A stretch of DNA of 64,000 bases from Trypanosoma brucei (taxonomy: Eukaryota), in the NCBI GenBank assembly GCA_000002445.1, contig CM000208.1, forward strand, positions 3,936,001 to 4,000,000, read 5' to 3'. The notes below the pieces were generated by a model, which saw only the letters and a list, made by a program, of their open reading frames with translations, did not search any database and was not told the DNA's origin. The translations under genes were made by a program, and so were the position numbers. This document shows, piece after piece, positions 14,950 through 43,799 of the stretch (position 1 is the first letter of the stretch; every line of letters begins with the position of its first letter).

Positions 14950-15543
14950 TGTAAGGTAAAATAGAGAAATCACAAACACGGTAGATAACTTCAAATAACT
15001 AACTTTTGCAGCCGACTTATACACCGCGGCAAGCCTAATAGAGAAAAGACAGGCAGCACTCAAAAAGGCTGAAGCAACAAAGGCTGCAATTGCGGCAGCA
15101 GTTGAATTAGCATACGGCGCCCACGGTGAAATAGCTGCTCTCACTGCACTAACGGCAGTGACACAACCCCCGGTAAAACAAAATGACATAAAAGACAGTG
15201 ACGCAGTTTTAAACAAGCAAAAAGAATGCGAAGGAATAACAAAAGCAGCTGACTGCAAAAACAATGGAAACTGCAAATGGGAAGGACCTGATGAAAAAGA
15301 CGGAAAACACTGCAAATTTAATATGACAAAGTAGAGCAACAAGAAACACATGCAGGAACTGGAGGGATACAGACAGGTAAAAAGTGTTCTGATCACACTA
15401 AAAAAGAGGCATGTGAGGCAGAGAATGTGGGACTAGCCCCGGGACAAAAGGCTAAATGTGGCTGGATTGAAGAAAAGTGCAAAAATTCTAGTTTTCTCGT
15501 CAATAAGAAATTGGCTGTTAGTATGGATGCCATCTTAATATAA
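14950..15543 (+). pseudogene. VSG 3' fragment (C-terminal domain + GPI signal), 5'-truncated at the ingi boundary
   Basis: Encodes ...ECEGITKAADCKNNGNCKWEGPDEKDGKHCKFNMTK*, then (after a frameshift) ...[54 protein letters not shown]. There is no N-terminal domain upstream before the ingi end. Confidence 0.75.
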
Positions 15544-15618
15544 GGAGAGTTTCAAGGATTTTCCCCCAACTTTTTGAAATTTATGAAATTTGCCATTTTG
15601 AGAGAATTTGCTAAATTT

Positions 15619-15634
15619 TGATATATTTTAACAC
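15619..15634 (+). promoter_or_regulatory. VSG 3'UTR 16-mer, perfect (TGATATATTTTAACAC)
   Basis: Exact match about 75 bp after the VSG stop. Confidence 0.85.
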
Positions 15635-15794
15635 CTTTTGATAAAATTTTTAAAATGTTGAAAAATATGAAATTTTGATAAAATGTATATGATTGTGGCA
15701 TGTGGGTATAAGGAAGTATCGTGATAATGTATAAAAATTAGTGCTATTATAATTTGATTTATTTCACTTATTTTACGGGAATCACTTAAGGTCA

Positions 15795-16538: not shown

Positions 16539-17899
16539 ATGCGGAAAAGCAATCTGACAACATTATTTCGAGTGTTGTTATTAACCGGTGTCTATCCTAT
16601 AACAAATGTACACGCCACGAACGAACACAAAGGGTTAACGGTAGAAACGGCAGTAAAGGTCTGCCTTTTCAGCAACAGGATGAAGGAAACGGCAGGTTAT
16701 GTCGCAGATAAAACAAGAGAGTTTGTCAGCAACACAGACCGACTACGACAGCTAGCAAGTGACATAACAGCGGCGGCACACGGCGACAGCAGCCAATGGA
16801 CACCAGGAGCGAAGTTCACGGCACTTCTTGCAGCAAAGACAGCGACGGACCGGCAGACCGTTACGGAACAACTCACAACAGAAGCGACAAAAGCGGCGGC
16901 AACATACGGAATGTTAGCCGGGCGCATTGAAGAGTTTGTCCAAGTTTTTTATCAAGCGCACAGACAGCAAGGCACAAGGTGCTGGTACAAAACCGGCAGC
17001 GAACGGACAGCAGCCAACGTCCCATGCCTAGATGCCAATGACAAGCTCAAAAAGGCGGCATCACTAGAAAACAAGGCAAGGCCCGACCTAAATACGCCGT
17101 ACAAAGCGCTTGGAAACCTGCAGAGCGGCGGAGCCCACACCAGCGAAACTAACTGCAAACTTCAGAACGGAGCCGCTGACAAAAATGTATACCTTAACAG
17201 CCAAACCAACAATCCGCAAATTAAATGGGGAGGCGGACTCTTTACAACCCCCAACAGCGACCGCGTGATAGCAAGCACAGACTGGGGGCCCAATGGCAAA
17301 GCAGGTGTAACAGCGGGCACATAAAAGGAGTGCGAAAACAACATAGCAGCATTTGACAGAACCGCCGCAACTGTAGAAGCCGATACGCAAATGCAAATCA
17401 AACTGGAAGGTGACGAGACCCCAACACCCGACCCAAAAGATATAGCAAAGGACGAATTCCACAAAGATATCCCCAAAAATAAACTAACGATAACGGCGGC
17501 AGACCTCAAAACAGTGCATGCCAAACTACAGCGATTCATAAAAAGCCACAACAAGGAGGAAGAGAATCTGCGAGGAGCACAGCTGCAGTTTTTGCAACAG
17601 CAGCTGCAATTAAACAAAACGACATGCGAACTAGGGGCAAAACACACCCCGAAAGATTATTGTCAAGTCACTGATACAGAACCACCAAAGTGCAACGACA
17701 AGGAACAGGAAGAATGCAGCACCACTAAAGGTTTCGAATGGAAAAACGACACTTGCAAGATCATCGAAAAAAGACAAAAAGAGGTAGCAGAAAAAGCAGA
17801 CCAAGAAAAGGAGGGAAGGATGGACAAACAAACATCACAGGAAGCAATTCTTTTGTCATTAAAGCTTCCACTCTTTTTCTTGCATTTTTGCCTCTGTAA
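16539..17899 (+). pseudogene. VSG pseudogene (frameshifted)
   Basis: 261-aa N-domain ORF with a signal peptide and cysteine pattern, ending at 17324. The continuation 17391-17924 is in another frame and has a CxC-rich C-domain (CNDKEQEECSTTKGFEWKNDTCKI). The GPI-signal region ends at TAA 17897-17899. Confidence 0.75.
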
Positions 17900-17921
17900 A
17901 ACTCTTAGGAGCTTTTCTGTT

Positions 17922-17937
17922 TGATATATTTTAACAC
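17922..17937 (+). promoter_or_regulatory. VSG 3'UTR 16-mer, perfect
   Basis: TGATATATTTTAACAC. Confidence 0.85.
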
Positions 17938-18334
17938 GTAAAAGTTATCCTGAATAATAATGTGTGTTTCTGTAAAGTTTCTGACTCTAGCTGTTATTTT
18001 TTCCTGATGGAAGAAATTCTCTTTCTTTCATCTTTTTAAAAATTTTTAGGGTTAGGTTTTTTAACCATTTTTAATTTTATTTTTGCGTATTTTGGCGTTT
18101 TTATTGCCAATTTTTTAATTTTCGAAACTTACAATTTTAGAAAGTTTGCTATACTTTAATAAACATAGATATATTTTAAAACTTTGAAAAAAACATAAAT
18201 TGAAGAAATGAGAAAATTTTTAAAAATACGAAAATTTTATTAAAATATGTACAGTAGTTGCCTATAGGTGTAATGTATTATAATGATATTGTATTAACAA
18301 TGAATGTTATTCTAATACGGTTCATTTTTTATGG

Positions 18335-18412
18335 ATATTAGTTAGGATTATGATAGTAATGATAACAGTTATAATGATAATGATAGGAGAGAGTTGTGAG
18401 AGTGTATCATTT
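18335..18412 (+). repeat. 70-bp repeat (single degenerate unit)
   Basis: GATAATGATAGGAGAGAGTTGTGAGAGTGTATCATTTTTGTAACG, preceded by the TTTATGGATATTAGTTAGG boundary motif. Confidence 0.6.
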
Positions 18413-19188: not shown

Positions 19189-20594
19189 ATGGACAAGCTC
19201 ATGTACCTAACGGCGGCAGCAGCCACAATAATGTTCCACGGAGCGAGCATTGGCGATGCAGCCGATGACCAATAGGCCGAAAACGCACAAGAGTTTGGAG
19301 CGCTCTGTAACTTAATTCGGCTAGCCTCTAAGGGCTTCGATAGTACAGAGATAAAAGTTGCAGACAAAGCAACGCAGCTAGAGGCCGACATACAGCGAGC
19401 GGAGATACTAGCTTACGACAACAAAACAGAGGTAGAAAAACGAGCAAAGGAAGGCACAGAAGGACTTAACAAAGGTGACAAGGCGCTGCCAAAAACTCCA
19501 GTGGGCATAGCAGCAGCAAAGAAAATAAACGAAACAGCGAAGGCGGCAGCAGCCTTGATATCGGCGCTGAAGGACAAGATCAAAAAGGTCGAAGCTGCCA
19601 CGGCCACGGCAAACAAACTCCTTTTCAAAGCAGTGTGGGGAAAAGAAGAAAAGCCGCCGGAGTTAAGCGCAGGTGCCACCTTGCTAGCAGAGGCCAACGT
19701 GCAAGCGATTTTCGGCGACGCGGCTTCAAGCGACAGGACAAAAAACTGCGGAGGCGCCAGGTTCACGCCGATGGCAGACACAAACGTCGGAAAAACGCTA
19801 ATTAACGACTTATTCTGTCTTTGCCTAGATGGAGTTGCCACTATGAAAAACTGCGGCACCAGCAACCATGGCACGGACACAGCAGCTGCCAACTTTCGCA
19901 CACCGCATACCACCATAAACAGCAAATGGGATACTTTGATGACGGAGTGTCCAGCACCACCAACGAAAGTCACAGCAGCAGCTCTACAGGCGGCGCTTAC
20001 AAGCCTCGTCTCGCTCATTGGAGAAAACAAACACAAAACCACGACCAGGACAGAAAACAACAAATACTTTCTCGGTTGGGCAGATACGACAGCTACAGGC
20101 TGCAGCGGCGCGACCAAACAGATTTGTGTAAACTATGCCCCATGGACAAAATCAGCAGCAAACACCGAAATCCGCTGGTAAACAGAAGTGCGGCAGGCAA
20201 TCGAAACAGCGCCAACAGCAGCAACCGAATCAGACATTACTGCCACCATCAACACGCTAACGACAATGAACCTAAGTGTTTGGCACCTATATGAAGCTGG
20301 TTTTTCAGCAAACACAAAAAAAGACAGTGAACCAACAAACGACAAATTAGCACCTGTAGCACAAGTAAATGCAAGAAGCACAAATTAAAGAAGACCTGTG
20401 AAGAAAAGGGTTGCATATGGGAAGGAAAAGGTGATACATATTGGGAGTGCAAACCTAAAGATGGGGAAGGACAGACAAATGAAGCAGGGACACAGGGAGC
20501 TGAAGCATATGGTAAAACCACAAACACCACAGGAAGCAATTCTTTTACCATTAATAAGGCCCCTCTTTTGCTTGCATTTTTTGTTCTAGCATAA
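19189..20594 (+). pseudogene. VSG pseudogene (in-frame stop at codon 30 plus frameshifts)
   Basis: MDKLMYLTAAAATIMFHGASIGDAADDQ* is followed by AQEFGALCNLIRLAS. ORF 19501-20181 has LFCLCLDG. The C-domain has CEEKGCIWEGKGDTYWECKPKDG and the GPI signal ...GSNSFTINKAPLLLAFFVL*. Confidence 0.8.
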
Positions 20595-20865: not shown

Positions 20866-21065
<200 letters not shown>

Positions 21066-23031: not shown

Positions 23032-24572
23032 ATGCAGACCAAAAGCCAAATAAAGGTAACCATTTTTCTTCTCTGCGTAGTGGCGAACATCGGCCAAGCA
23101 GCGATAAGCGGCGGAGAAAGCGAGGAGGACTTTGCCACACTCTGTATGCTCATAAATATAGCAAAACGTACGATCACCATCCCAACGACAGAATCAGACG
23201 CCGACGCACTAGCCGCCAATATAGGTGCCATAAACATGTCGGTAGCGGAAGATGGACTGCAGGCCAGAGTAGACAAGGCCAAAAAAATAGATCAGCTAAC
23301 AGGAGAAGCGGCTTCAGCAGCCAAAGGACTGGAGGACAAGTGGGATTTTATACAAAAAGCAAAACAACAAATTGAAGGAAACAAAAAAGCAGAGTACGAG
23401 AGGTGGAAGCAAGCACAATTGGCAACTAAAGCAAGGCGACAGATTTCTATGGTCGCAGAAGAAGCGTACAAACTGCACCAAAAGCTAGTGGCCGCCCGAG
23501 CTAAACTAAATGCCGACAAAATCAACGCCAAGCTCAAGGAGGCCTTTTACGGGCCTAAAATGAGCGCAACTGAAGTCAAAACGAGCGCCGGCAGCAGAGA
23601 AGCAGCATGCGGGCCAACTAACGGCGAAGGCGTGGCAGACGCAGGCAGCTCGCTTGCGATGGACCTACTTTGTATCTGCGGCAAGCACGCCTCAGACGTA
23701 TCCGGCCATAAAGCCTGCGGTAAAGACTGGAGCGGCGGCGCAGTAGCGACCACAAATTGGGACCCGACAAGTAACGCAACGCCGATAATATCGGCCTTGC
23801 TCACAAAATGCCAGCTGCAAACAACGAAGGCAACACTTTCAACAGCGGAATTAAATGCAGCCATGAACAAGTTTTTAATGCGCATATCAGTCGCAAGGGG
23901 CACCAGCGGCGCAAAGAGGCGGATGCTAGGGACTCTAGACGGCACAGGTGCTGGAAAGTGCAGCGGACATCACGACAGCACCAACGGCCCTTGTGTTCAA
24001 TACAAGGAAGCCCACCTAACAGGGCCGGACATTTCGATCCCATGGTACGTCGCGCTAAAGGAAGCCCACGACAGCTGGGAAGCGGCAACGCAAACGAAAG
24101 GAGACATCAGAAGACTTGAAGCGCAGTTAAAAGCACTAAACCTAACGGCAAATAGTTTACATCTGGAGACGGAAACAGCTCACAAAAAAGAAGTCACAGT
24201 ATAAGCGGAAGCGGAAACTCTGACAAGTAAACAAAAAGAATGTGAAGCGATACAAGCAGCGGCTGACTGCAGAAAGAATGAAAACTGCAAGTGGGAAGGC
24301 TCTGATGACAAAGATGGTCCCCACTGCAAATTGAATACAACAGCAGTAGAACAACAAACAACACAAGCAGGAAAAGATGGAGCAACAAGCGGAGCAGACC
24401 CTAATTGTAAGCAACATGGGGATAAAACTAGTTGCGAAAAGCGCAATACTGCTGGCCTAAACCCTGTTTGTGGCTGGAAAAAGGCAAAGATAATGAGCCT
24501 GATCTAGAAAAAGAAATGTGCAGAAATGGTAGTTTTCTAGTCAATAAGAGATTGGCTCTTATGGCTGCATAG
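23032..24572 (+). pseudogene. VSG pseudogene (A-type; in-frame TAA at 24202-24204 and a C-terminal frameshift)
   Basis: 390-aa ORF with a signal peptide, DFATLCMLINIA, INMSVAEDG, LLCICGKHA and IPWYVALKE. It continues in frame past the stop with ECEAIQAAADCRKNENCKWEGSDDKDGPHCKLNTTAVEQQTTQAG, then a shifted ...CRNGSFLVNKRLALMAA*. Confidence 0.8.
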
Positions 24573-24837
24573 TTTGACAGTTATATATAATTTTAAGTAT
24601 GTATAAGCATATTTTCTCAATTTTATGGAATTTGTAAAATTGCTTAAATTTTATATATTTGAACGCCTTTGTAAAACTTTTGCAACTGGTTAAAAATTTT
24701 TAAAAGCTCAAAGATATAAAAACTTGAAATTTTTGTAAATTCTTCTTAATATATATCTATTGCTGCGGAGCTTTATGGTGATAGAATATGGAGAGTGTAT
24801 TCTGTTATAAGTATGTATATACTTACGTTTAATAAGA

Positions 24838-24925
24838 GCAACAACAATAATAATAGTAATAATGATAATAATAATAATAATAGAAGAGTGTTATGAGTGT
24901 GTGTATACGAATATTATAATAAGGG
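24838..24925 (+). repeat. 70-bp repeat
   Basis: AATAATAATAGTAATAATGATAATAATAATAATAATAGAAGAGTGTTATGAGTGTGTGTATACGAATATTATAATAAGGG. Confidence 0.8.
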
Positions 24926-25612
24926 TAGTGGTTGAAGGGCAATACACGGCCAAAATAGAGACACTTGCAAGTATAAAAAACGCAATGTTTGTAAGTGAGT
25001 AGGCGAACACTGTGGATTACATTGAACGAAGTGCAGAAATACAAAGACAGTTAGATATGGAATATGTGTGGGCTCAAACGAAACCACGAAGGTCAGCATC
25101 ATTATACATGTGGTGGTTGTGCCGAGGCCAATTTAGGAACAGGAAGACTCTAGTGTACAGACCAAATTTATATCGGCACGGGATACGCAACAACATTGGA
25201 TTTGGTGAGGAAGTTACACCACTGCGAAATTTAGGAAAGCAGATAGTCGGCATATTTACAGCACAAAGGCTTAAAATTTATAGTAAACGTGAGGACAACT
25301 AGTGTATCTGGCTATTTAATTTTTATCATAATGTACATAGGGGTTCATGTAGCGTCTAGCAGCAGTTGTCCTTGAATATAAATTAAAAAAACAAAAAAGG
25401 CAGGTCCTTGATGAGATATAATCTTAAAACACTGAGAACACACTGTTTGTCAGCTACATCATAAAAATATCAGAGCGCTGCATATATATATATATTTGTA
25501 AACATTACTTCATAACTAATCATATTTTCTGCACAACTGCCTTCTTCTATCAAAATATTCTATCATTTTATAAGAATTTTAAAGTCTTTCCTTAGTATAG
25601 AAGTATTGTCTT

Positions 25613-26715
25613 ATGAAATATATAGAAAGAATTCATGCAATAATAGGCTGTTTATCCTTTATTGTTATGGGGATTAATTTATTTACGTCACTATATAACT
25701 TGTTTTGTGAGGATTATCCTATTTCACTTGAAATAATAGAAAATGACTATATGAGATTTGTTACGCAGGATGTAAGGAGGATTTGGAAAAGCAAAGATTA
25801 TTTGGTTGTAGCTCTAATACCTTTAATAGATAATAACGAGATTTTAGAAGAAGGAATATTCAAAGAGAAACGTGTTGGAGTTATCCTGAAGTGGCAAGAA
25901 AGTCAAATAATTTTACAGGGAAGTTGCTTGTAGTATATGCTCTTTCACCTTACACAAATAACAATTGCAAACTCAGAGAAATTGCTGCAACAGAGGGTTA
26001 TGTAAATCAGGATATTATTATTTTACCCGTTTGCGATGTCGACCCTACAACAAATAAGAAAGTGGGAGAAGCTGGTAATTGGGGTTGGGAAGCAGAACTC
26101 ACGATGAGTAGAAAAACGTATCTGTGGTTCAAATTTTCAGTAGAGATATTCAAGAAAACTAATCCCTATATAATAAAAGCAGATAACGATATATTTATGA
26201 GAGTGCCATTGTATCTAAAATATCTAGAGCTGCTTCCAAGAGAAAAATTAAATATGGGGAGAGCAGTTGGATATTATAAAGATTTTAGTGATGAAATTAC
26301 ATGGCACACCATTGGTTATGCATCGACACTATCTAGGGATGTAGTTAAGAAAATTGTTGATTATGACCCTCTGAAAAAATTAGTAAAAGCACCAATTAAG
26401 TTCAGAAATTTTGAATCATATATGGATTTTAGAGCACTTAATGAAGATACTATGGTTGGAGAGGTAATAAGGAGTAAATTGAAATTTGAGGGTTTATTAA
26501 CTGTGGATATGCAGGACTGTCATTTTGTAATGCATGCGCAAACTCGGGGACCAACCGAGGCCAAAAGTAGTTGCAACATCATAGCATTTCATCATATCTT
26601 GCCTTACCAGTATCAACAGCTGCCCCTAACATCGAACACATCAATTTGTGCAGGCAAACGAAACCCAGTGTTACGCACCATAAACGATCAATGGGCAGAG
26701 TTCACTTGTCAATGA
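25613..26715 (+). pseudogene. Glycosyltransferase pseudogene copy 1 (trypanosome UDP-Gal/UDP-GlcNAc-dependent GT, GT31/GT67-like; frameshifted)
   Basis: Two overlapping ORFs in different frames (25613-25933 and 25891-26715). An N-terminal hydrophobic anchor suggests a type II membrane protein. YIIKADNDIFMRVPLYLKYLELL resembles the beta-3-glycosyltransferase LLKxDDDVFV (DxD) region. Confidence 0.6.
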
Positions 26716-27199
26716 CAGTTATTCCAAGCCAAAGCAAGCAACGAAAAACCGAGCAAATAAGGTGGGAACCGGCAAGTCTCCGCATGCAATGTAACTATGA
26801 CCTGGTAGGCACAACAAAAAAAGGAATAAAAAAGCATGCACCGCAATTCGGTATTTTCAAGAGACGGCAGCAAACTCAAGCCACAAAAGCTCCAACTCAA
26901 AGCTATTTCCCCGCACCGACCATAGCATGTAGGTGACAAATAAGAAACGACTATGTAAAAGGCAGTAAACAGAAACGACACAAGCTGCGTGATCCAGGAC
27001 CAAACAAGTGTTGTTTTTCTTTGCCGACGCGGTGGCTCGCTACTGGCTAGCAACTAAAAAACAAAGATAATCTAAACAAATTTTTTTCGTTTTCACACAG
27101 AGGTATAAACACCATGTCCACACACACGATAATCAAAACCAGCAGCCTGCAGCAATTCTCAAAACACTAGGTCGCCATTCAAGAGGAAATTTAGTTAAA

Positions 27200-28740
27200 A
27201 TGGTCAAACAACTCATGACAAGCGCCATCTTAGTGCTACTTGTAGCAACAAAAGGTGATGCAATAGTGGCAGCAGGTGACAATGCAGCAGCAGCAGGCGC
27301 CCTTTGTGAAGTTCTGGCATTAGGCGCCGGGCGGAGTTTGCTAACTCAACCTAAAGAAAACGCTGACACAGCGCACCACAGCCTCCTAGACTTGAACATG
27401 TCGCTTGCAGGTGAAAGTTGGAGGTCTGTCTTTGAGGAATCAGGCAAAAAGGGAACATATCCGGCAGCGAAGCCACAGCGCTACGACACCAACAAAGATT
27501 GGGATACAAAATGGAAGGAATGGTCGCAAACGGCTCAAAGGCTAAAGGACGCTGATGGCATACAGCAGAAACTCAAAGAACACAAACTCCATTCCAGAAC
27601 AGTCCAGCATTTGGCAGTAGCCAAGCAAGCGGTCCTACAGCTAGCCGATGAACAATCAAAACTTGCAGCGGAACTTCAAAGGATAAAGGACACAAAGAAA
27701 ATCCTAGCTAACGATCAGCTAAGAGAAAAGATAAATACAGCTCTCTATGGCGAAAACGTCGCCACAGAAAACACACTATCACCTAACAAGGTATTTGACG
27801 CAACAGCCGGCAGCGACAGGAAAGCCAACTGCGACGGCACAGCCAAAGACAACAAAGCGAAAACAGTGATGGCAGCGCTGGTGTGCGTATGCAGCGAGGA
27901 TTCATCCAGCGGCCTAGACCAAGCGTGAAACAAGCATCTAACCCTAAATCAGCAATGGACATCGAGCAGTCAACCAACAAACGATGTGATGCAAGAGCTA
28001 AGAAACCTCTGCCCGACAGCAAAGCCGACAACCATAACGGCAGCCAGACTGGCGAGCATAATAAGCAATGTTAAGACTCACTTCATCGCAAGCTCATCAG
28101 CAACGGTATTAGGAAAACTGGATACGGGAGCAGCCTGCAGTGGTTCTGCCAACAGCGGGCTCTGCTTAAAATACACGGACGTCCACCAAGTGGCAGCAAA
28201 CACGATAGACGACATCAGTTGGATAGCTGCTCTAAACCAGATAGTAAACGACATAAAAGACCACGAAGAGAGCGTAGCGGCAGTAGACAGCATCGGCCGC
28301 CAGCTAAGCGCAAACACTGAAAAAGCAGGAGCCTTTATCGCCAGCATAGAGCAGTACACGCAGGCACAAGCAGCAGTATCACCAACAACGAATCCCAACC
28401 CCGCACAGGCTCAGAAAAACGATCAAAATGCAAAAAATGCTTGCGCCCAACACAGGTCTAACACAAGCTGCACAGATGAAGGCTGCAAATGGGATGGGAC
28501 TGAAGAAACCAAAGGAAAGTGCAAACCTAAAGATGGGGAAGTACAGAAAACTCAAGGAACAGGAGAGGGAGCTGCAGAAACAAATGCCGAAGGCAAAAAG
28601 TGCTCCGAAAAGACAAAGCAAGAGGAATGAAAAGATGACTGCAAATGGGAAAATAATGCTTGCATAAATTCCAGTTTTCTTGTAAACAAACACTTCGCCC
28701 TCAGCATGGTTTCTGCTGCATTTGTGGCCTTGCTTTTTTA
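27200..28740 (+). pseudogene. VSG pseudogene (A-type; frameshifted)
   Basis: ORF 27200-27928 with a signal peptide, ALCEVLALG, LNMSLAGESW, REKINTALYGE and ALVCVCSED. ORF 27986-28630 carries the C-domain with CTDEGCKWDGTEETKGKCKPKDG. The last frame has [36 protein letters not shown]. Confidence 0.8.
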
Positions 28741-28791
28741 ATTAACCCCCCCTTTTATAAAAATTTTCCCCCTGCTAAAATTTTGCTACAC

Positions 28792-28807
28792 TGATATATT
28801 TTAACAC
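28792..28807 (+). promoter_or_regulatory. VSG 3'UTR 16-mer, perfect
   Basis: TGATATATTTTAACAC. Confidence 0.85.
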
Positions 28808-28943
28808 CTAAAACCAGCTGAGATTTTTTGTTTGTTGTTTGTAAAAATGGTGATTCTGTAAAAAATATTTTCTGGCAACTAAAATTTTTTTCTCTTTTTC
28901 CCGTTTTTTTTTGAGTTTTTGTAGGTAGGTAGGAGGGGGGTAG

Positions 28944-29078
28944 TTAGGTTAGTTGGGTTAGGGTTAGGGTTAGGGTTAGGGTTAGGGTTAGGGTTAGGGT
29001 TAGGGTTAGGGTTAGGGTATTGAGGGTTAAGGTGGTGAGGGTTAGGGTATTGAGGGTTAAGGTGGTGAGGGTTAGGGT
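28944..29078 (+). repeat. Interstitial telomeric repeat tract: about 11 perfect TTAGGG units, then two copies of a degenerate variant unit
   Basis: GGTTAGGGTTAGGG... from about 28955-29018, then GGGTATTGAGGGTTAAGGTGGTGAGGGTTAG twice. The G-rich strand reads 5'->3' on the plus strand, the polarity expected for a chromosome end lying to the right. Confidence 0.9.
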
Positions 29079-29536
29079 TTTTACTTTTTGGATCATTTTT
29101 TATTTCACTTCTTATTAATTTTTTATTTTTTTATAATTCGTTAATTTTTCATTGTAAGTGATGCAGAGGCCTTTTTTGATGCGCAATCTCAAACACATTC
29201 GTACAGTATTCATCTTGGTCTTCATTTTTTTCGCATGAAGCATCAACGTGGTTTATTACGCTTTTGCTTATTTTTCTCGTGTCAATTTTACCTCTGCGTT
29301 TTGCGCTGCGCGAGGCTTCAATTTTTTAAAACGCTAGCGCGTGGCAATTTCGCTAGGAGAAACGATTTGCTATTCAGGTGCCCTAAAAATTTTTTTATTA
29401 TTTGAAACTGGCATAATATGGAGTTTGGCAGCTAAAGCCAGCCGACATAGCAGCTTGGACAGGTCGTACCTTGGCACAGCAACCCAACAAATGCGAGCGG
29501 AGCTCTCAAACAAATAGCTGAAGCAGCAGAAGGACA

Positions 29537-30040
29537 ATGCAGGTGCATCTCCATGCCCTAACAGATCCGTCGGAAGTCGTCAAAAATCTTAACGAAGAGT
29601 CCCATAATCACTACGGACATAAATACACAGCAAAAAAAAACAATCCAACAATAGAAGAACAGAATAAATGCAAACTAAAAAACACAACTGCTGAAGAATA
29701 CGCAAACGAGGACTGCGAATATAATGCTGCCAAAAACACAAGAATGCAAACCTAAACCAGGAAGAGAAAACACAGCAGCAGGAACAAGAGAGACAATTAC
29801 CGTGGTAGATTAAAATAAACACCGATCCCAGAAAGCATGTGAAGCGGAAAACAAGGATGTCAAACCTAGTTACAAAAAAGTATGTAGATGAATTGACTGT
29901 GTTGATGGTACGGGAAAGCTTCTCAAGCCCGAGTGCCGCTATTCCAGCTCTCTCATCAATAAGAAATTGGCTCTGGGTATAGCTGCTGCTTTGACGGGTT
30001 TGGCTACACTCTATAATTATAAAATTATAGTACTTTAAGG
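29537..30040 (+). pseudogene. VSG C-terminal fragment (degenerate), lacking an N-domain
   Basis: Cysteine-rich C-domain-like ORF 29537-29755, then ...IDCVDGTGKLLKPECRYSSSLINKKLALGIAAALTGLATL (degenerate GPI signal). VSG-type 3'UTR follows. No 70-bp repeat or N-domain lies between it and the telomeric tract. Confidence 0.55.
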
Positions 30041-30284
30041 ATTTTTTAAATTTCATGAATTTTGTGAAACTCTTCTATGTTGAGAGGATTTGGTAAAATT
30101 TTATGAAATTTAACATATTATATCACTTTTTTAAAACCTTTGCGAAATATGAAAAATAATAAATTGTTTTCAAAAGAATACGTAATTTTTATACGAAAGC
30201 GACCTCTAGGAGCAAAGATGTAACAAAGTAAGGTAATGTGGTTTGAAAATGAGTGCTATTCTAATTTAGTTAATTTTTGTTTAT

Positions 30285-30380
30285 TCTTCTTCATTTTATA
30301 GATGTCAATGGAGACTATAATAAAGATGATAACAATAGGAGTGTATTGTGAGTGTGTCTTTACTAATATTATAGTAAGGT
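30285..30380 (+). repeat. 70-bp repeat (single unit)
   Basis: ATAAAGATGATAACAATAGGAGTGTATTGTGAGTGTGTCTTTACTAATATTATAGTAAGG. Confidence 0.7.
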
Positions 30381-31697
30381 TAGTGGTAGAAACTAAATAG
30401 ATGAAAAATATAGAAGGGCTTCAGACAATGACAATAGTGCAATGTGAGTGGGGCAGCGGATGAGTGAGAGAGCGCGGGGAATATTTTTATGAAAGGGAAT
30501 GCAGAAAGACAAAGGGAAAAAGATGGAATATGCGAAGTTTCAAACACATTAAAGGCAATGTACATCATTGCACACAAAAGAAGGGTACGGAGATCATTAA
30601 TGAAAAAAGTAAACCTTACAAAAGTAGTTGAGTTACTTTTTTATCAGAAACTGACAAGGAATGAAGCAACAAAAACAGCTGACTAAAGATCCAGTAAAGA
30701 CCGGCGATAAAAGAATAAGAACACGCTTATATGAAATGATGAAAGATCTATATTAAGTAAAGACAATCAATACTGATACTCCACAAATTTAAGACATGTA
30801 TAAAGGCCAGACATTAAGACATCTAAAGAAACGAATAATTAACATAAGAGTTGTGACTGATGCAAAAATAATGTATCGTATTAACAAGGTGGAAGCAGTA
30901 AGGAAAGCACTTTCTTTCTCCAAAATTCCAGGTCTTAAGGAAAAGTGAACCATATCCATACTACAATATCTAAAAAAGAAGCACAACACCATCTTTGTGA
31001 GAGATAAGCAACAGCGGTATCTGGTCATTCGGAGTCATGAGGATACATTGAAACTGCTAGATGGTAGAAGACATTTAAAAACACAAATATAAAATGTCTT
31101 GGGTATACCAAAATCTGCGGTATTTTAAAGAATGACAGAAAGAAAATTCTAGTCGTGTATGAAAGAACTATATAAATGAACACAGTATGATATAGGTTGA
31201 AATTAGCAAGAGACATTAGCAAAAAACAAAATTTACGTTAAACGTTTTTAGAATTTTTAACTCTTTCTACGGTAGAACTAACTTTTTCACAAGTTAAACA
31301 CGTAAAAAACGCTACCATTTAGTGTGGTAATTTACATATTTATGTATATCTTTATGCCAATTTTTTTAATTTGCGTTTTTTTCTTTTAACACATGCTTTT
31401 CGCTTGTTTGCCGTGGTTTTCTCATTTTATTTTGTGCTCTCAATGGCCTGACAGCGATATAGAGGCCGATCCTTTGTTGAAATTTTTTTTTACTGGAGTG
31501 GCGGAATTTAACGTCGCCACAGCATAGAAAGGAAGAACACCACGACCACATAACCAAATGTTGCTTTAAAACCTAAAGATCCAGACATATGACAACGATG
31601 TGAAGTCTACGAACTATTTCCTGTAACTGACATAGGGAAGCAACCAAATAAATCGCTGCAACGCTAAGACTAGTCGCATAACTGTTTCCTCACTTAC

Positions 31698-33320
31698 ATG
31701 ATTAAAGAAGACACAAGGATTCAACCAATTTATTCTATGCTAAAAGTTGCGGTATTTGTATTACCAGCGGCGGCTTCCAACACACCACGGCAGACAGCGG
31801 CAAATTCGCAAGCCGACGAAAACGCTCAAGAGTTCGCTCTGCTATGCGACACCTTTCACATAGAAACAACAGAGCCCAAACTACCGCCTGCATCAGACAC
31901 CGCGAGCACAATAGCAATTAACATAGGGGCCATAAACATGTCAATTGCAGCCAGCACTTTTAAAGCCGACATCGACCACACAAAGTATTTAAGTGAACTG
32001 CAAGACAAACCTGCCGTACCCAAAACAGGCGACGAAAAGGGCCGCTGGGAAAAATACTATACCTTCTGGAAAAAATGTAAGAATGCAATCGAAACACACC
32101 CCAACAAAGCCGATTAGGCAAAGTGGTCGACGAAAAAGATTAGAAAAGCCCAGCTCGAGAAATTACGTTTAAACGTCGAAAGGGCCTTTGAATTTTACAA
32201 AGCAACCCAGACAACACTAAAAATCGCCCAGGCAACAAACATTCAGACACTTTTAAATAACGCCGCCTTCGGAACGGGCAACACAGAAGCGACAACAAAC
32301 TATGGGCCAGGCAACCGCGCAGCCATTTGCTCGGGGACATCAACGAAGACTCAACTCAAGGCAGGGACCTCACTCAAACTAGACCTTCTTTGCCTTTGTG
32401 CCTATGACAACGGCGCCACCCCTAACGGAGCCAAGATATGCGGCCCCGACACGGCAGCGGCAGGGAGCAGCGCCAGCGATAACTGGGAAGGACACTCAAA
32501 GACGGAAGCAAACTGGACGCCGTTGAAAGCCGCGTGCAAATCAAGAAAAACTCCGGGCAGATTAAATCTGGCAACCGTAGAGGCAATCAGACTGAGACTG
32601 GCGGAACTACTGGGGCGCCAGACACCAGAAGAAGCCAAAGCTCATAAATATGTACTGGGCTCAATAAGAGGCGATGGAAGCGAGGGCTGCAAAGTAAATA
32701 AAGATAGAAATGGTGGCAGGTGCGTCAAGTACGCAGAGTCAGATCTGACCGACCCGGCAAAAGGAATAGAGTGGCTTAGAAATCTACGCGACGCAGCATT
32801 GGCCAAAGAAGCAGCGGTCGACGCCAAAAAGGAAATGACAGCCATTACCCGCAGTTTACAACTACTCAATGATTCCACCAACCTACTATTCGACGAGGAT
32901 GAGACAACACTAGCACCGGCGACAACACCAAACCCATCACCAACAGGCAGTAAAGCACAAGAGCAAAAGCAAAAAGAACAGTGCGAAGCGATAAAAGTGG
33001 CAACTCAGCGCAAAGGAAAGAAACCACTTTGCGAATGGAAAGGCAAAAATGACGAGGATGGAGAACACTGCAAATTGAATACGGCACACGCGTAGCACAA
33101 CAAACAACACAGGCAGGAACAGCTGGAGGAAATGGAGAAACAAAAAACAGATAAGTTTGGCCAAGCAAAAACTCCTGAAGAATGTGCTGCAGTGAAAGGT
33201 GAAATTCCGAAAAATAAAAAAGCCGCTTGTGGATGGATCGAAGGCAAATGTCAGAATTCAAGTTTCCTCGTTAATAAGAAATTGACTCTAATGGTTTCTG
33301 CATTTGTGAGTTTGGTATAA
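31698..33320 (+). pseudogene. VSG pseudogene (multiple frameshifts)
   Basis: N-terminal ORF with EFALLCDTFHIE and INIGAINMSIAAS. The middle ORF 32523-33095 has GRCVKYAESDLTDPAKGIEWLRNL and CEWKGKNDEDGEHCKLNTA. The terminal ORF 33132-33320 has [30 protein letters not shown]. Confidence 0.8.
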
Positions 33321-33407
33321 TTCAAGCATTTTAACGATTCTTATTCAATTTTGCGAAATTTATGAAAATTTGTTATTTTCAGATAATTTTCTAAACTTTG
33401 AAATATT

Positions 33408-33423
33408 GAATATATTTTAACGT
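33408..33423 (+). promoter_or_regulatory. VSG 3'UTR 16-mer, degenerate (TGAATATATTTTAACG)
   Basis: 3 mismatches to the consensus, about 90 bp after the stop. Confidence 0.5.
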
Positions 33424-33555
33424 TTTTTGATGAAAATTTGAAAATCAGTAGAAATCATTAAATATACGTATAAAAGTTGCTTGTGGGTGTAAATTAGTAT
33501 GGTAACAAGATATGGATAATGAGCACTTTCTCAACGCATTTCCACTTTTGTTTTT

Positions 33556-33905
<350 letters not shown>

Positions 33906-34692
33906 AATAGTAGTAGTAAGTAAGTGATCCGAATGACGAGTGCAAAGAGAGAGAAAACAAGGACTATTATTGAGGAAGGCGACGGTAGACAAAAAGAGCA
34001 AGAGGGATAAAAATAGAATGTTAGAATGTTAGAACAAAAACGTCACGATGGAAATCATCAGACACAAAGAACTGATATAAGCGGATGTATTCAGTACACA
34101 CATAAGGTTAAAGCTGCTTTTTTGCTGACCAGCAACATATAAGATGGATAAAAAAATTCCGACTGTAAGAACGCGTCGGACTAACCCAAAGTGTGGAATA
34201 GTATAGATCGATCATCGATCCACATATTTTACCTCAAGTGGGATAGATATTAGCGCATAAATGATAGTAGAGGCAGGTGTAGAAGCTGTTAAAAAATCAC
34301 CGATGATGGCAGTATCATGGAACTTCCCGATGGATGTGGTAGGTAAAATAGAAACTATTAAACTTCTCACTATATTTGAATAACACAGCGAGACTATCTA
34401 CTGAAATTACCATGTAAATGTCTAAAGAGGAATTCTATATTCAGCGACTGTGCCATATGTGACTGAAGTTATATTCTAGGCGACAAAATTGATACATGGT
34501 GGAATATAAGCTGTCATTATTTAGTGTGCAGCCTTAAACAGTTACATCATATCAACAAAAAGTCATTACTTATATTTGCAAACATTTTTACCCTACTATA
34601 CATCTTAGTTGCTCCCACTGACTTCTTTCCTTAATGTTTTATGTGATTTTCTAACTGATAATAAGCTCGCCTTAGTATGACAATAAAGTCTT

Positions 34693-35843
34693 ATGAAGTA
34701 TATAGAGAGCATTTACGCAATAATCGCTTTCTTTTCTTTTATTTTTATGGGGATTAATTTATTTGCGTCACTATATAACTTGTTTTGTGAGGATTATCCT
34801 ATTTCACTTGAAATAATAGAAAATGACTATATGAGATTTGTTACGCAGGATGTAAGGAGGATTTGGAAAAGCAAAGATTATTTGGTTGTAGCTCTAATAC
34901 CTTTAATAGATAATAACGAGATTTTAGAAGAAGGAATATTCAAAGAGAAACTTGTTGGAGTTATCCTGAAGTGGCAAGAAAGTCAAATAATTTTACAGGG
35001 AAGTTGCTTGTAGTATATGCACTTTCACCTCATACAAATAACAATTGCAAACTCAGAGAAATTGCTGCAACAGAGGGTTATGTAAATCAGGATATTATTA
35101 TTTTACCCGTTTGCGATGTCGACCCTACAACAAATAAGAAAGTGGGAGAAGCTGGTAATTGGGGTTGGGAAGCAGAACTCACGATGAGTAGAAAAACGTA
35201 TTTGTGGTTCAAATTTTCAGTAGAGATATTCAAGAAAACTAATCCCTATATAATAAAAGCAGATAACGATATATTTATGAGAGTGCCATTGTATCTAAAA
35301 TATCTAGAGCTGCTTTCAATAGAGAAGCTGAATATGGGGAGAGCATTGGGCGAACTTGACGAGTATATTGGCAAGCTGACGTGTTATTTTGTTGGCTACG
35401 CCAATACGCTTTAAAGAGATGTCGTGGAATCAATAGTTGTCTATTCAAATGTTTCCAAGCTATTATCCAGTAGAGTCAGTTTTCGAAACTTTGACAAATA
35501 CATAGATTATGCCGCATTGAACGAGGATATTATGGTTGGGGAAGTAATAAGGCACAAAATGAAACTTGAAGGTTTATTGACTGTGGGTATGCAAGATTGT
35601 CATTATGTGATGCATGTGAAAAGGCCACTAGACAGGTTTTTAGCAAGTAATCCTAACCTTATTGTTTTACACCGCATTTCAGAGGAGGAATACAAATGGT
35701 TAATGAAAATATTTGAGAATACAACGGCAGAACAAATATCTGGCCCAACACAAATAAGAATAACGCGATTCTGGCAGGAGTTCAGCTGCCGCCCGCTAAC
35801 GCACGCAACTGGACATGCAGCCACGAAATCGGCACAACCCTAA
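34693..35843 (+). pseudogene. Glycosyltransferase pseudogene copy 2 (paralogue of 25613-26715; frameshifted)
   Basis: Three ORFs in different frames (34693-35013, 34971-35414, 35424-35843). The block 34770-35330 is near-identical to copy 1; the flanks are diverged. The C-terminal segments align with copy 1: RNFDKYIDYAALNEDIMVGEVIRHK versus RNFESYMDFRALNEDTMVGEVIRSK. Confidence 0.6.
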
Positions 35844-35938
35844 CACGTTGCAGGCTGAGAAACTCAAAAACGGCAAGCTGTCACAACAAAACGGCGCTAA
35901 CCATTTGCAATATTTTTGAAGAACAACAATTAGTTGAC

Positions 35939-37495
35939 ATGTGGATGCACCCGACTCAGTTCGGAGCGATGGCATTGCTCTTGCTATCGCTAGCAACAAA
36001 ACGCGCAACAGCAACCCTCGCGGACGGCGTCAACAGACGAGAGCATGCTTCCCTTTGTGTTTTTGTATCGATGGCGGGGTCAACAGTGGAGGTACCGGAA
36101 GTACCCCAACTAAAATCCGAAGACTATAAATTAATTCAGGCACTCAACCTCAGCACAGCACCTGATGACTGGCAAAATATGTTTTACAAAGACGCCTCGA
36201 AACAGAAAACTCATTTAACACCAGCAGAAGCTGGGAAGGCAACAGCGGGATATGCCGACTACTGGGGGGACTGGCTGGAAGCCGCCAAAGAGGTCGCTGC
36301 AAAGCCTTTGCAAGGGAAACTGGCAACCCTGAAAGCGGCCGAGCTAACCGGCGTGCAGAAGCAGCTAGCGTCGATAAAAATGCAGCAAATCGCAGCACGC
36401 GCACTGGCACTCAAAACGGCATTCCCAAAACTCTCGAGCAGCGCGGCAGCTCTAACTTCGGAAAACGCACTAAACAAGATAAAAAAAGCAACTTTCGGGG
36501 GCGACAAACTAACAGCCAAAACGGCAACGCGCGCCGCAGCTTTCGGAGGGGACACGGGGTCAACGCCAAGGGCGACGGTGTGCGAAGCGGCGGAAGGCGA
36601 AAAAAAGGCGGCCACGGCGACGGCAGCGCTAGTATGCTTATGCTTAAAGAACACAGGCGGAGCAGACAACGGCCCAACAAACGGTGCTTGCACACCAAAA
36701 GGGACAGGAACCGAAGGATGGCAGTCAACAGCGAACAAGGCGCCGGACAGAGACATCAAAAACATGACGCAGACATGCCCATTACCAAGCACAGCCCCGG
36801 TACGAAGCAGCGACCTGAAAGCAGCGGTAGCAGCTCTAAACGGCCTCATACACTCCGACAACACCGACGGTTATCTAGGCGCACGACTAACCGGCGCCTG
36901 CAACGGCAGCTCAGGGAACGGCATAGGTGTCAAGTTCACCGGCTACAACGCAGCTGGCAGCACAGCATTCAGCAAGCTACCATGGGTAGGTGACCTACAG
37001 CAGCTAGCAAATGACCTGGAAGAAAGAGAAACCAAAAAAGCACTGGCCGACCACCTGAATTCTCTAATAAATCTCGAGGCAACGGCGGCAGAAGAGGCAA
37101 TAAAGTTGAGCGGCGCCGAAGCAAAGCTGAATGGACCGCTGCCGGCAGGGCTGCCCACCAAAGTGCCACCCATAACTACAGTAACATGCGAGGTGCACAA
37201 TAAGTCCAAAACAAAGTGCTTAGAAGCGCAGTGCAAATGGGGAGGCAAAAAGGATGATGACGGCCCATGCCAAGCTAGCGACAAACAAGTTTCAGAGCAG
37301 ACAAAGCAAGATGGAAGAGATACAACAACAGGTGGAGATGCCAAGAAAGAGGAGAAATGCGCAGAGAAAGAGTAAAAAGACTGCAAATCTCCGGATTGCA
37401 AATGGGAAGGAACAGAATGCAAAGATTTCAGTCTTCTTGTAAATAACAAAATTTCTATTATTGTTTCTGTTTCTGTGAGTTTGGTAGCATTTTAG
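35939..37495 (+). pseudogene. VSG (A-type), intact except for one in-frame TAA (37373-37375) before the last ~39 codons and GPI signal
   Basis: 478-aa ORF with a signal peptide (MALLLLSLATKRATA), ALVCLCLKNTGG, NGIGVKFTGYNAAGSTAFSKLPW and CEVHNKSKTKCLEAQCKWGGKKDDDGPC. It continues in the same frame after the stop: KDCKSPDCKWEGTECKDFSLLVNNKISIIVSVSVSLVAF*. Confidence 0.8.
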
Positions 37496-37689
37496 CATAT
37501 TGAGGATATTTGCTCAATTTTATGAAAACTTTCTATTTTAAGATAATTTGATATGTTTTAATACTTCTTAGTGAAAATGTACAAATTATTTAAAATCTGA
37601 ACTTTGGTGTGAAACTGCCTTATGGGTAATAATTGAAGTTTAATATGATATGAAAATTTTATTTTTTGCTTATTTTACTTTTTTGTTAA

Positions 37690-37772
37690 TTTTATGGATA
37701 ATTGTTAGATTAATAATAATAATAATGGAAGAGTGTTGTCAGTACCTATATACTAATATTATAAAATGAGCA
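37690..37772 (+). repeat. 70-bp repeat (single unit, degenerate)
   Basis: TTAATAATAATAATAATGGAAGAGTGTTGTCAGTACCTATATACTAATATTATAAAATGAGC. Confidence 0.65.
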
Positions 37773-43740: not shown

Positions 43741-43799
43741 CATATGACCCAATAGTAGCGGAATCAGCAGCGTTGAAGATCGAAGCACGAGTGAGTTCG

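What the first reader, a model, noticed from the sequence alone, without database searches (positions are those of the whole stretch)
24838..30040. Expression-site-like cassette: 70-bp repeats, GT pseudogene, VSG, 16-mer, telomere repeats, then an orphan VSG 3' fragment
The order of elements from 24838 to 29078 mirrors the distal end of a telomeric VSG expression site (70-bp repeats, a co-transposed-region-like gene, VSG, telomere). Immediately beyond the TTAGGG tract lies a VSG C-terminal/3'UTR fragment (29537-30040) with no 70-bp repeat and no N-domain. Together this looks like a breakpoint where a former telomeric cassette was joined to a truncated VSG, i.e. a recorded recombination scar.
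Basis: inference. Interest (0 to 1): 0.6.

Follow-up and report, generated by a model that had tools for sequence, protein, structure and literature searches.

The report
Fossil telomere inside a VSG array
A short stretch of chromosome-end (telomere) repeats sits right after a silent trypanosome coat-protein gene in the middle of a gene array. It most likely marks an old chromosome end that was buried when more DNA was added beyond it, so it is a real but fairly ordinary trace of how these arrays are rebuilt.

Summary
- one 70-bp repeat unit
- a frameshifted glycosyltransferase pseudogene
- a full-length VSG pseudogene with two in-frame stops
- an exact 16-mer
- a telomere tract, followed by a VSG C-terminal fragment with no N-domain and no 70-bp repeat of its own

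The telomere tract starts 180 nt after the VSG stop. It runs from degenerate TAGG repeats into (TTAGGG)10.7 and then two 30-bp variant units. It ends abruptly at 29079.

It is not a misassembly. A gap-free block of an independent T. equiperdum scaffold carries the same breakpoint.

Two points change the interpretation. First, 70-bp repeat, then GT pseudogene, then VSG occurs a second time in the window without any telomere tract. The site also has no ESAGs and no long 70-bp array. So "telomeric VSG" is supported and "expression site" is not. Second, the spacer after the tract is not unique. Two other T. equiperdum VSG cassettes carry a 70%-identical copy at the same position, preceded by a decayed GGTTAGGG relic and followed by a VSG C-terminal fragment. 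The VSGs upstream of those copies are unrelated to this one.

The scar is therefore old and has been copied as a module.

Best reading: an internalised former chromosome end.

The parts
24838..24930 (+). Single 70-bp repeat unit (a TAA/TGA-rich run plus the conserved GT-rich core). It is the 5' boundary of the cassette.
   Evidence: The core at 24895-24923 matches the pattern with 0 mismatches; 7 such sites occur in the window against 0 expected.
25613..26715 (+). Glycosyltransferase (GT67-type) pseudogene with a frameshift between 25840 and 25858. A paralogue lies at 34693-35789.
   Evidence: One search gives 83.8% identity over 1054 bp to the second copy, which has its frame change at the matching position.
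27200..28741 (+). Full-length VSG pseudogene (B-type N-domain plus C-terminal domain plus GPI signal). In-frame TGA codons lie at about 27926 and 28630.
28742..28807 (+). VSG 3'UTR ending in the exact 16-mer TGATATATTTTAACAC (28792-28807).
28808..28920 (+). T-rich flank between the 16-mer and the telomere tract.
   Evidence: It is nearly identical in T. equiperdum scaffold L001.
28921..28954 (+). Degenerate telomere-like repeats (GTAGGTAGGTAGGAGGGGGGTAGTTAGGTTAGTT), forming the proximal transition zone.
28955..29018 (+). Perfect (TTAGGG) run of 10.7 copies, with the G-strand pointing away from the VSG.
   Evidence: (100% matches, score 128).
29019..29079 (+). Telomere-derived variant repeats. 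Two copies of the 30-bp unit GGTTAGGGTATTGAGGGTTAAGGTGGTGAG (29010-29069, the first overlapping the end of the perfect run) plus a partial third. The breakpoint reads ...GGGTTAGGG|TTTTTAC.
   Evidence: The identical junction occurs in L001.
29080..29382 (+). T-rich spacer plus conserved block, non-coding. It belongs to a repeated family found at the same position behind two other VSGs in T. equiperdum.
   Evidence: 70% identity, E 3e-21 and 1e-19; nhmmer E 1e-82; score 106 against 19.8 +/- 2.7 for shuffles. It is unique within the window. No Rfam, Pfam or HMMER hit.
29383..29641 (+). A-rich stretch of unassigned origin. Its composition resembles VSG sense strand, but no homology was detected.
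29642..30005 (+). Orphan VSG C-terminal domain plus GPI-signal fragment, with stops and a frameshift.
   Evidence: (Trypan_glycop_C 3.5e-11).
30006..30155 (+). 3'UTR of the orphan fragment, with a degenerate 16-mer region.
   Evidence: 30056-30154 matches the 3'UTR at 15575-15672, 74%.
30300..30390 (+). 70-bp repeat of the next cassette. It marks the right-hand limit of the module.

Best explanation
This is a fossil telomere, that is, an interstitial telomeric sequence, inside a Trypanosoma brucei-group subtelomeric VSG array.

Proposed history:
1. At some time a VSG sat at a chromosome end.
2. Its telomere was eroded or broken down to a stump of about 160 bp: degenerate repeats, about ten TTAGGG, and 30-bp variant repeats.
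3. The end was repaired by acquiring array DNA distal to it, in the same head-to-tail orientation. The likeliest route is microhomology-primed copying (break-induced-replication-type 'telomere capture'). Simple joining is the alternative.
4. The acquired DNA began in a non-coding stretch about 560 bp upstream of the C-terminal part of another VSG. That explains the orphan fragment with no N-domain and no 70-bp repeat.

The event is old. Since then, relic plus spacer plus C-terminal fragment has been duplicated as a module to other cassettes. The VSGs upstream of the copies have been exchanged by ordinary VSG gene conversion.

What is shown: the anatomy, the polarity, the breakpoint, its presence in a second genome, and the paralogous copies. 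What is inferred: that the tract was once a true end, and the repair route.

Today it is most likely inert. It could still bind telomere proteins, be fragile, or seed a new telomere after a distal break.
For: - Polarity and position are those of a telomere behind a telomere-directed VSG. The tract starts 180 nt (degenerate) or 214 nt (perfect) after the stop. Expression-site clones show 200-1590 nt.
- The repeats go from degenerate to perfect on the proximal side, and the tract ends abruptly at ...GGGTTAGGG|TTTTTAC.
- 12 (TTAGGG)2 matches were found against 0.13 expected.
- The window carries VSG (pseudo)genes for 24 kb to the left and 35 kb to the right, so the tract is internal.
- The same junction lies in a gap-free block of an independent T. 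equiperdum OVI scaffold. Collinearity runs from 27464 to 30927. Identity is 96.6% in the spacer and 85.6% in the VSG N-domain region.
- Spacer homologues occur in T. equiperdum contig CZPT02001181.1 at two cassettes. Each abuts a decayed GGTTAGGG-containing relic about 190 nt after a 16-mer, and one is followed by a VSG C-terminal fragment, a 3'UTR and a 70-bp repeat.
- At least one of the VSGs upstream of those copies is A-type, whereas this one is B-type.
- The same process, internalisation of failed telomeres by duplicative capture of subterminal sequence, has been shown experimentally in Pyricularia oryzae (PMC8381367).
Against: - No true T. brucei chromosome end could be fetched. The 28808-28954 flank therefore could not be compared with genuine telomere-adjacent sequence.
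- No 'empty' allele was found, so copying-on versus insertion cannot be separated.
- The 30-bp variant units lie distal to the perfect hexamers. From memory of Weiden et al. 1991 (not verifiable here), the 29-bp telomere-derived repeats lie internal to the hexamers. The order here would then be unexpected, unless proximal telomere regions are interspersed.
- A perfect 10.7-copy run beside flanks that differ by 3.4% from the T. equiperdum copy suggests later slippage or homogenisation rather than a frozen relic.
- Homology between the window and the T. equiperdum paralogues is significant only for the spacer. It is modest for the relic plus the first 95 nt of the spacer (3 of 300 shuffles reach the score) and absent for the pre-relic flank (36 of 300).
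Confidence: 0.62

Rival explanations
1. Copy-in rather than add-on. A telomeric VSG cassette, from the 70-bp repeat to the telomere stump, was copied by one-ended gene conversion into an internal array gene. Homology was used at the 70-bp repeat on the left and a non-homologous or microhomology join on the right. The 5' part of a resident VSG was replaced and its C-terminal fragment was left behind. This is essentially the first reader's reading.
For: - The orphan fragment lacks exactly what such a replacement would remove, the 70-bp repeat and the N-domain.
- 70-bp repeats are the known 5' boundary of VSG conversion (established knowledge).
- The local anatomy is identical to that predicted by the best explanation.
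Against: - About 560 bp (29080-29641) between the tract and the C-terminal domain shows no VSG homology. The right join is therefore not inside a recognisable VSG.
- The 70-bp, GT, VSG part recurs without a telomere tract at 33590-37700. The relic-spacer module also recurs behind unrelated VSGs without a GT. The left half and the right half of the supposed insert therefore behave as independent units.
Confidence: 0.2
2. The site was never a chromosome end. TTAGGG repeats were added by telomerase during repair of an internal double-strand break, or expanded by slippage from a short GGTTAGGG seed already present in a family of VSG 3' flanks.
For: - Short interstitial telomeric repeats inserted at break repair are documented in mammals (PMC7215372, listed).
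- The paralogous T. equiperdum modules carry only GGTTAGGG plus degenerate units.
- The T. equiperdum orthologue has about 3 hexamers against 10.7 here, so the copy number is dynamic.
- The run is 100% perfect.
Against: - The tract has a structured proximal transition (TAGG-type repeats) and 30-bp telomere-derived variant units, not just pure hexamers.
- It lies at the distance from a VSG stop, and in the orientation, expected for a telomeric VSG.
- The sequences on its two sides are of different kinds, a VSG 3' flank against spacer plus an orphan VSG 3' end. A simple insertion into continuous sequence does not predict that.
Confidence: 0.12
3. Assembly chimera: a telomeric contig was wrongly joined to an array contig.
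For: Telomere tracts and VSG 3' ends are repeated sequences and are prone to misjoins. The window's own reads could not be inspected.
Against: An independent T. equiperdum assembly contains, in one gap-free block (L001 1934-2779), the pre-telomere flank, the tract, the identical breakpoint, the spacer and the start of the orphan fragment. Two further diverged copies of the relic-spacer junction exist.
Confidence: 0.03

Closest known systems
Telomere relics, meaning internalised former telomeres, in Pyricularia (Magnaporthe) oryzae subterminal regions (PMC8381367; PMC1635262)
   Same: - A short tract of canonical telomere repeats at a non-terminal, subterminal position.
- It is followed by sequence duplicated from other subterminal regions.
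- There it is explained, and shown experimentally, by repair of failed telomeres through duplicative, often microhomology-mediated, capture.
- The relics are associated with segmental duplications and adaptive gene families.
   Different: - A different organism and a different gene family.
- Here the relic sits in a fixed position behind a VSG 3' end and is part of a module that was itself propagated.
- No experiment in trypanosomes links telomere failure to internalisation.
Telomeric VSG loci of T. brucei: bloodstream and metacyclic expression sites, minichromosomal VSGs and array-terminal VSGs (PMC2567434; PMC12137147)
   Same: The order 70-bp repeat, VSG, 16-mer, about 200 nt, TTAGGG repeats. 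The G-strand runs away from the VSG. The VSG-to-telomere distance is at the low end of the 200-1590 nt reported.
   Different: - Not terminal: 35 kb of array follows.
- Only about 160 bp of telomere-like sequence.
- One 70-bp unit and no ESAGs or promoter seen in the searches run, so it is not an expression site.
- The VSG is a pseudogene.
Ordinary subtelomeric array VSG cassettes and VSG 3' fragments of the silent archive
   Same: A single 70-bp repeat, mostly pseudogenes, a 16-mer in the 3'UTR, head-to-tail orientation, and C-terminal-only VSG fragments.
   Different: In the window the other cassettes run from the 3'UTR straight into the next 70-bp repeat. Only this one carries a telomere tract and the spacer family.
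Short interstitial telomeric sequences inserted during double-strand-break repair in mammals (PMC7215372)
   Same: A short head-to-tail (TTAGGG)n run at an internal site.
   Different: Those are insertions into otherwise continuous sequence. Here the two flanks are of different kinds, and the tract has subtelomere-type degenerate and variant repeats.

Membership tests
Interstitial telomeric sequence / telomere relic (internalised chromosome end) | Tandem canonical telomere repeats at a non-terminal position, beyond chance | tested here: met
   (TTAGGG)10.7 with 100% matches. 12 matches against 0.13 expected. VSG genes continue for 35 kb beyond it.
Interstitial telomeric sequence / telomere relic (internalised chromosome end) | Polarity and proximal flank as at a real end: the G-strand runs 5'->3' outward from a telomere-directed gene, with a degenerate transition zone | tested here: met
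   The VSG and the G-strand are both on the + strand. Degenerate TAGG repeats (28921-28954) precede the perfect run. The distance from the stop is 180-214 nt, against 200-1590 nt in expression-site clones.
Interstitial telomeric sequence / telomere relic (internalised chromosome end) | The proximal flank is homologous to sequence next to present-day telomeres | not testable with these tools
   No T. brucei chromosome-end sequence could be retrieved. Look-ups of TREU927 proteins failed.
Interstitial telomeric sequence / telomere relic (internalised chromosome end) | A real genomic junction, not an assembly artefact | tested here: met
   The identical breakpoint lies in a gap-free block of T. 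equiperdum scaffold CZPT02001133.1.
Bloodstream-form VSG expression site (distal part) | A tract of many 70-bp repeats upstream of the VSG (0.2-7.1 kb in sequenced sites) | tested here: not met
   There is one unit of about 93 bp.
Bloodstream-form VSG expression site (distal part) | ESAGs and a promoter upstream; terminal position | tested here: not met
   The ORFs and similarity maps examined upstream show VSG pseudogenes and an ingi element and no ESAG; no dedicated ESAG or promoter search was run. The locus is internal.
Subtelomeric array VSG cassette | One or a few 70-bp repeats, a VSG (often a pseudogene) and a 3'UTR 16-mer, arranged head to tail with neighbours | tested here: met
GT67-type UDP-Gal/UDP-GlcNAc-dependent glycosyltransferase family of T. 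brucei | Sequence homology across the protein | tested here: met
   58-68% identity, E down to 5e-115, to five TREU927 proteins, three of them carrying PF01762. The conceptual translation itself had no Pfam hit at E 0.01.
GT67-type UDP-Gal/UDP-GlcNAc-dependent glycosyltransferase family of T. brucei | An intact reading frame | tested here: not met
   There is a frameshift between 25840 and 25858, with the frame change at the matching position in the paralogue at 34693-35789.
Telomerase-inserted short ITS at an internal break | The flanks are contiguous in alleles or species that lack the tract | not testable with these tools
   No allele without the tract was available. The only orthologue (T. 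equiperdum) also has it.

The most novel reading that the evidence does not exclude
VSG arrays may grow, at least in part, by repeated 'telomere capture'. A terminal VSG's failing telomere is repaired by copying more array onto it, each time burying a telomere stump.

On this reading the conserved relic-spacer module is not just debris. It would be a reused landing or healing site, and interstitial TTAGGG tracts would act as latent telomere seeds. A distal break could then turn an archived VSG back into a telomeric, activatable one. That would give two-way traffic between telomeres and the silent archive.
Probability: 0.12. Interest if true: 0.75.

Novelty: new member of a known kind. Interest (0 to 1): 0.42.

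Why it matters
How the silent VSG archive is built and renewed is still open. In particular, it is unclear whether sequence ever flows from telomeres, where VSGs are expressed and mosaics are assembled, back into the internal arrays.

A telomere stump buried behind an array VSG is direct sequence evidence that at least some array positions were once chromosome ends. It is shared with T. equiperdum and has been propagated as a module.

Such relics can be counted genome-wide in long-read assemblies. That makes the question testable: how often, how recently, and next to which VSGs.

Internal TTAGGG tracts may also matter for function. They could act as binding sites for telomere proteins, as fragile sites, or as seeds for new telomeres. 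None of this was tested here.

In itself, an interstitial telomere repeat in a recombinogenic subtelomere is not surprising.

Tried and rejected
- Source of the window. Exact look-ups of four window ORFs in the protein collection and in the contig index found nothing. The strain stays unidentified. The nearest VSG relatives (83% to Lister 427, 72% to EATRO1125) suggest neither of those strains.
- Fetching TREU927 loci through five proteins failed. Only two T. equiperdum contigs were reachable.
- Spacer and pre-CTD stretch, 29080-29641:
  - No Rfam family.
  - No Pfam domain in the three frames of the 29341-29760 part or in a composite translation.
  - No hit for its 58-aa ORF among 1.84 billion representatives.
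  - No other copy in the window.
  - A 102-aa ORF in one T. equiperdum copy is broken in the other three copies, so a coding role was rejected.
- Idea that the mini-relics at 18046 and about 20775 are decayed copies of the same module. Their post-relic sequences are no more similar to the spacer than shuffled sequence, so this was rejected. The pre-relic flanks show only weak similarity (11 and 35 of 300 shuffles reach the score).
- Head-to-head telomere fusion, or a minichromosome end read from the tip inwards. Rejected on polarity: the tract is G-rich on the strand of the VSG, and the orphan fragment is on the same strand.
- Double 16-mers in the T. equiperdum scaffolds as recombination footprints. 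Rejected, because they flank 10-N gaps and are unmerged contig overlaps.
- Literature. Ten full-text searches found no description of interstitial telomere repeats in T. brucei VSG arrays. Older key papers are not held (Weiden 1991; Marcello & Barry 2007; Cross 2014; Hall 2003; LaCount 2001). 'Not described' therefore means not found in this library only.

Full report
**What the window is.** The 64-kb window is a Trypanosoma brucei-group subtelomeric VSG array.
- Similarity and Pfam searches map VSG genes or pseudogenes on the - strand at 927-5865.
- On the + strand they lie at 14732-15600, 16539-17900, 19195-20526, 23032-24573, 27200-28741, 31728-33323, 35939-37450, 39316-40845, 42650-45030, 56128-57003 and further on.
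- An ingi-type retroelement (reverse transcriptase, endonuclease, RNase H, zinc finger) sits at about 9868-15400, at the strand switch.
- 70-bp repeat cores and 16-mers occur far more often than chance.
- The finding lies in the middle of this array, with 24 kb of array to the left and 35 kb to the right.

**Checking the observation.** Every element is there.
- One 70-bp repeat unit lies at 24838-24930. It is a single unit, not 'repeats'.
- A glycosyltransferase pseudogene lies at 25613-26715. It is 58-68% identical to TREU927 'UDP-Gal or UDP-GlcNAc-dependent glycosyltransferase' proteins, and a frameshift at 25840-25858 splits it.
- A full-length VSG lies at 27200-28741, with VSG_B and Trypan_glycop_C domains, a GPI signal and two in-frame TGA codons. 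Its best relative is Lister 427 VSG-1184, at 83%.
- The exact 16-mer lies at 28792-28807.
- After a 113-nt T-rich flank comes the telomere tract. It has degenerate TAGG-type repeats (28921-28954), (TTAGGG)10.7 without a mismatch (28955-29018), and two copies plus a partial third of a 30-bp telomere-derived unit. It ends at ...GGGTTAGGG|TTTTTAC (29079). There are twelve (TTAGGG)2 matches against 0.13 expected.
- Beyond the tract lie:
  - a T-rich stretch (AT skew about -0.35 to -0.4);
  - an A-rich stretch starting at about 29400;
  - a VSG C-terminal domain, recognisable only from 29642 to 30005 and carrying stops and a frameshift;
  - its 3'UTR, to about 30155;
  - the next 70-bp repeat, at 30300-30390.
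- No 70-bp repeat and no N-domain signal lie between the tract and the fragment.

**Not a misassembly.** A relative of the VSG led to T. equiperdum OVI scaffold CZPT02001133.1 (L001, 3.7 kb).
- It is collinear with window 27464-30927.
- The scaffold has 10-N gaps flanked by unmerged overlaps.
- One gap-free block (1934-2779) contains the pre-telomere flank, TTAGGG x3, one 30-bp unit, the identical junction GGTGGTGAGGGTTAGGGTTTTTACTTTTTGGATCA, the whole spacer and the start of the orphan fragment.
- Identity is 96.6% in the spacer, 90.4% in the orphan C-terminal domain and 85.6% in the VSG N-domain region.
- The junction therefore exists in a second genome and predates the separation of the two copies.

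**Telomeric, but not expression-site-like.**
- The tract has the polarity of a chromosome end behind a telomere-directed VSG. Its distance from the VSG stop (180-214 nt) is at the low end of the 200-1590 nt measured in 17 expression-site clones (PMC2567434).
- That paper also reports 0.2-7.1 kb of 70-bp repeats. Here there is one unit.
- No ESAG turned up in the ORFs and similarity maps examined upstream, although no dedicated ESAG or promoter search was run.
- A second GT pseudogene lies at 34693-35789. It is 83.8% identical over 1054 bp and has its frame change at the matching position. It also lies between a 70-bp repeat (33590-33875) and a VSG (35939-37375), whose 3' flank runs normally into the next 70-bp repeat without telomere repeats.
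- The GT is therefore a feature of a family of array cassettes. It is not a co-transposed-region equivalent and is not linked to the telomere tract.
- Telomere-adjacent VSGs also exist at metacyclic sites, on minichromosomes and at array ends (PMC12137147). 'Telomeric VSG' is what the data support.

**The spacer is a repeated element.**
- The spacer 29080-29641 is unique in the window. It has no Rfam, Pfam or remote protein match.
- It does match a second, unrelated T. equiperdum array contig (CZPT02001181.1, L002) at two places: 15532-15725 and 17930-18122. These are 70% identical, with E 1e-19 and 3e-21. nhmmer extends them to 15445-15731 and 17843-18129. The local alignment score is 106, against 19.8 +/- 2.7 for shuffles.
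- Reading those loci shows the same order of parts:
  - VSG and 16-mer;
  - about 190 nt of T-rich flank;
  - a decayed telomere-like stretch, GAAGGTAGGAGGAAGGAGG...GGTTAGGGATGGTTATTCGGGTTCCGGTTATG, which directly abuts the spacer homology;
  - the spacer, then about 200 nt of non-homologous sequence;
  - in the complete copy, a frameshifted VSG C-terminal/GPI-signal fragment, a 3'UTR with a 16-mer, and a 70-bp repeat.
- The two L002 copies are 86.5% identical over 2.4 kb. The VSG upstream of one is annotated A-type, whereas the window's VSG is B-type. No GT is present there.
- The order telomere relic, spacer, C-terminal fragment therefore recurs at several places as a module. It is separable from the identity of the VSG in front of it and from the GT.
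- Caveats:
  - Significant homology is limited to the spacer.
  - It is modest for the relic plus the first 95 nt of the spacer (3 of 300 shuffles reach the score).
  - The pre-relic flank and the A-rich stretch are not significantly similar.
  - Similarity between C-terminal domains is not specific to these copies.

**Mechanism.**
- Shown: a telomere-type tract in telomere orientation behind a VSG, an abrupt break to unrelated DNA in head-to-tail orientation, the junction shared between genomes, and older paralogous copies.
- Inferred: a VSG-bearing chromosome end lost most of its telomere and was repaired by acquiring array sequence beyond the stump. The head-to-tail orientation fits copying from another array (break-induced-replication-type capture, probably primed by microhomology). 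It excludes a head-to-head end fusion.
- The acquired sequence happened to start about 560 bp upstream of a VSG C-terminal domain. That produced the orphan fragment.
- Later segmental duplication spread the module. Ordinary VSG conversion, bounded by the 70-bp repeat on one side and the 3' end on the other, changed the upstream genes.
- The same sequence of events has been demonstrated in Pyricularia oryzae, where failed telomeres are internalised by duplicative capture of subterminal sequence and leave 'telomere relics' (PMC8381367).
- The perfect 10.7-copy run here, against about 3 copies in T. equiperdum, suggests that the tract length still changes by slippage.

**Rivals.**
1. One-ended conversion of a telomeric cassette into an internal gene predicts the same local picture. 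It cannot be excluded without an allele from before the event. It is weakened because the left part (70-bp, GT, VSG) and the right part (relic, spacer, fragment) occur independently elsewhere.
2. Telomerase insertion or slippage at a site that was never an end is weakened by the degenerate and variant repeats, by the VSG-relative position, and by the unlike flanks.
3. Assembly error is effectively excluded.

**Limits.**
- No genuine T. brucei chromosome end, and no TREU927 or Lister 427 array DNA, could be retrieved.
- Two things are therefore untested: whether the proximal flank matches that of live telomeres, and how common these relics are.
- My recollection is that a 29-bp telomere-derived repeat lies internal to the hexamers in T. 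brucei (Weiden et al. 1991). I could not verify it. If it is right, the order seen here (hexamers, then 30-bp units) needs explaining.
- Ten full-text searches found no description of such tracts in VSG arrays, but several key older papers are not in the library.

**Verdict.** The expression-site label is not supported. The scar is an old, propagated module rather than a unique recent event. It is a new example of a known kind of feature: an interstitial telomere relic in a recombinogenic subtelomere. It has moderate interest as a countable marker of how VSG arrays are assembled.

Noticed in passing
window 33590-37700: A second cassette with the order 70-bp repeat, GT pseudogene (34693-35789), VSG (35939-37375, open for 478 aa). 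The GT copy is 83.8% identical to the one in the finding and changes frame at the matching position. This cassette has a normal array-type 3' flank and no telomere repeats.
   Followed up: yes
window 17922-18400: An exact TTAGGGTTAGG at 18046-18056, 109 nt after the 16-mer of the VSG pseudogene 16539-17900. It is followed by T-rich sequence, a 16-mer-like AGATATATTTTAAAAC (18167-18182) and a degenerate 70-bp repeat. This may be a second, nearly erased telomere relic with a leftover 3'UTR. A weaker look-alike (CTTAGGCATAGGA) lies at about 20775. The post-relic sequences are not significantly similar to the spacer of the finding.
   Followed up: partly
window 9868-15600: An ingi-type non-LTR retroelement lies on the - strand (ORFs with reverse transcriptase, endonuclease, RNase H and a C2H2 finger). 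It sits at the switch from - strand to + strand VSGs. Next to it is a VSG 3' portion (14732-15600) that appears truncated.
   Followed up: partly
window 57801-58274, 33649-33834, 20872-21020: Very long pure (TAA)n runs (158, 62 and 50 copies) in the triplet part of 70-bp repeats. Other cassettes have about 12 copies.
   Followed up: no
L002 12779-12791: CCCTAACCCTAACC (two telomere units, C-strand orientation) lies between cassettes of the T. equiperdum array contig, about 850 bp upstream of a VSG. About 0.0006 would be expected by chance in 19 kb.
   Followed up: no
L001 and L002 (T. equiperdum OVI scaffolds): Each 10-N gap is flanked by near-identical duplicated sequence, for example L002 7500-7680 against 7685-7860. 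These are unmerged contig overlaps. They create false 'double 16-mers' and a false duplication of the pre-telomere flank in L001.
   Followed up: yes
L002 17936-18244: A 102-codon open frame with a hydrophobic N-terminus and many cysteines runs through the spacer family in one T. equiperdum copy. It is interrupted in the other T. equiperdum copy, in the window (29178 onward) and in L001, so it is probably not a gene.
   Followed up: yes
window 30400-33600: The cassette after the orphan fragment has about 1.3 kb between its 70-bp repeat and the VSG-like region (31728-33323). It also contains a 190-aa ORF (32523-33095) with no Pfam hit. Not examined further.
   Followed up: no
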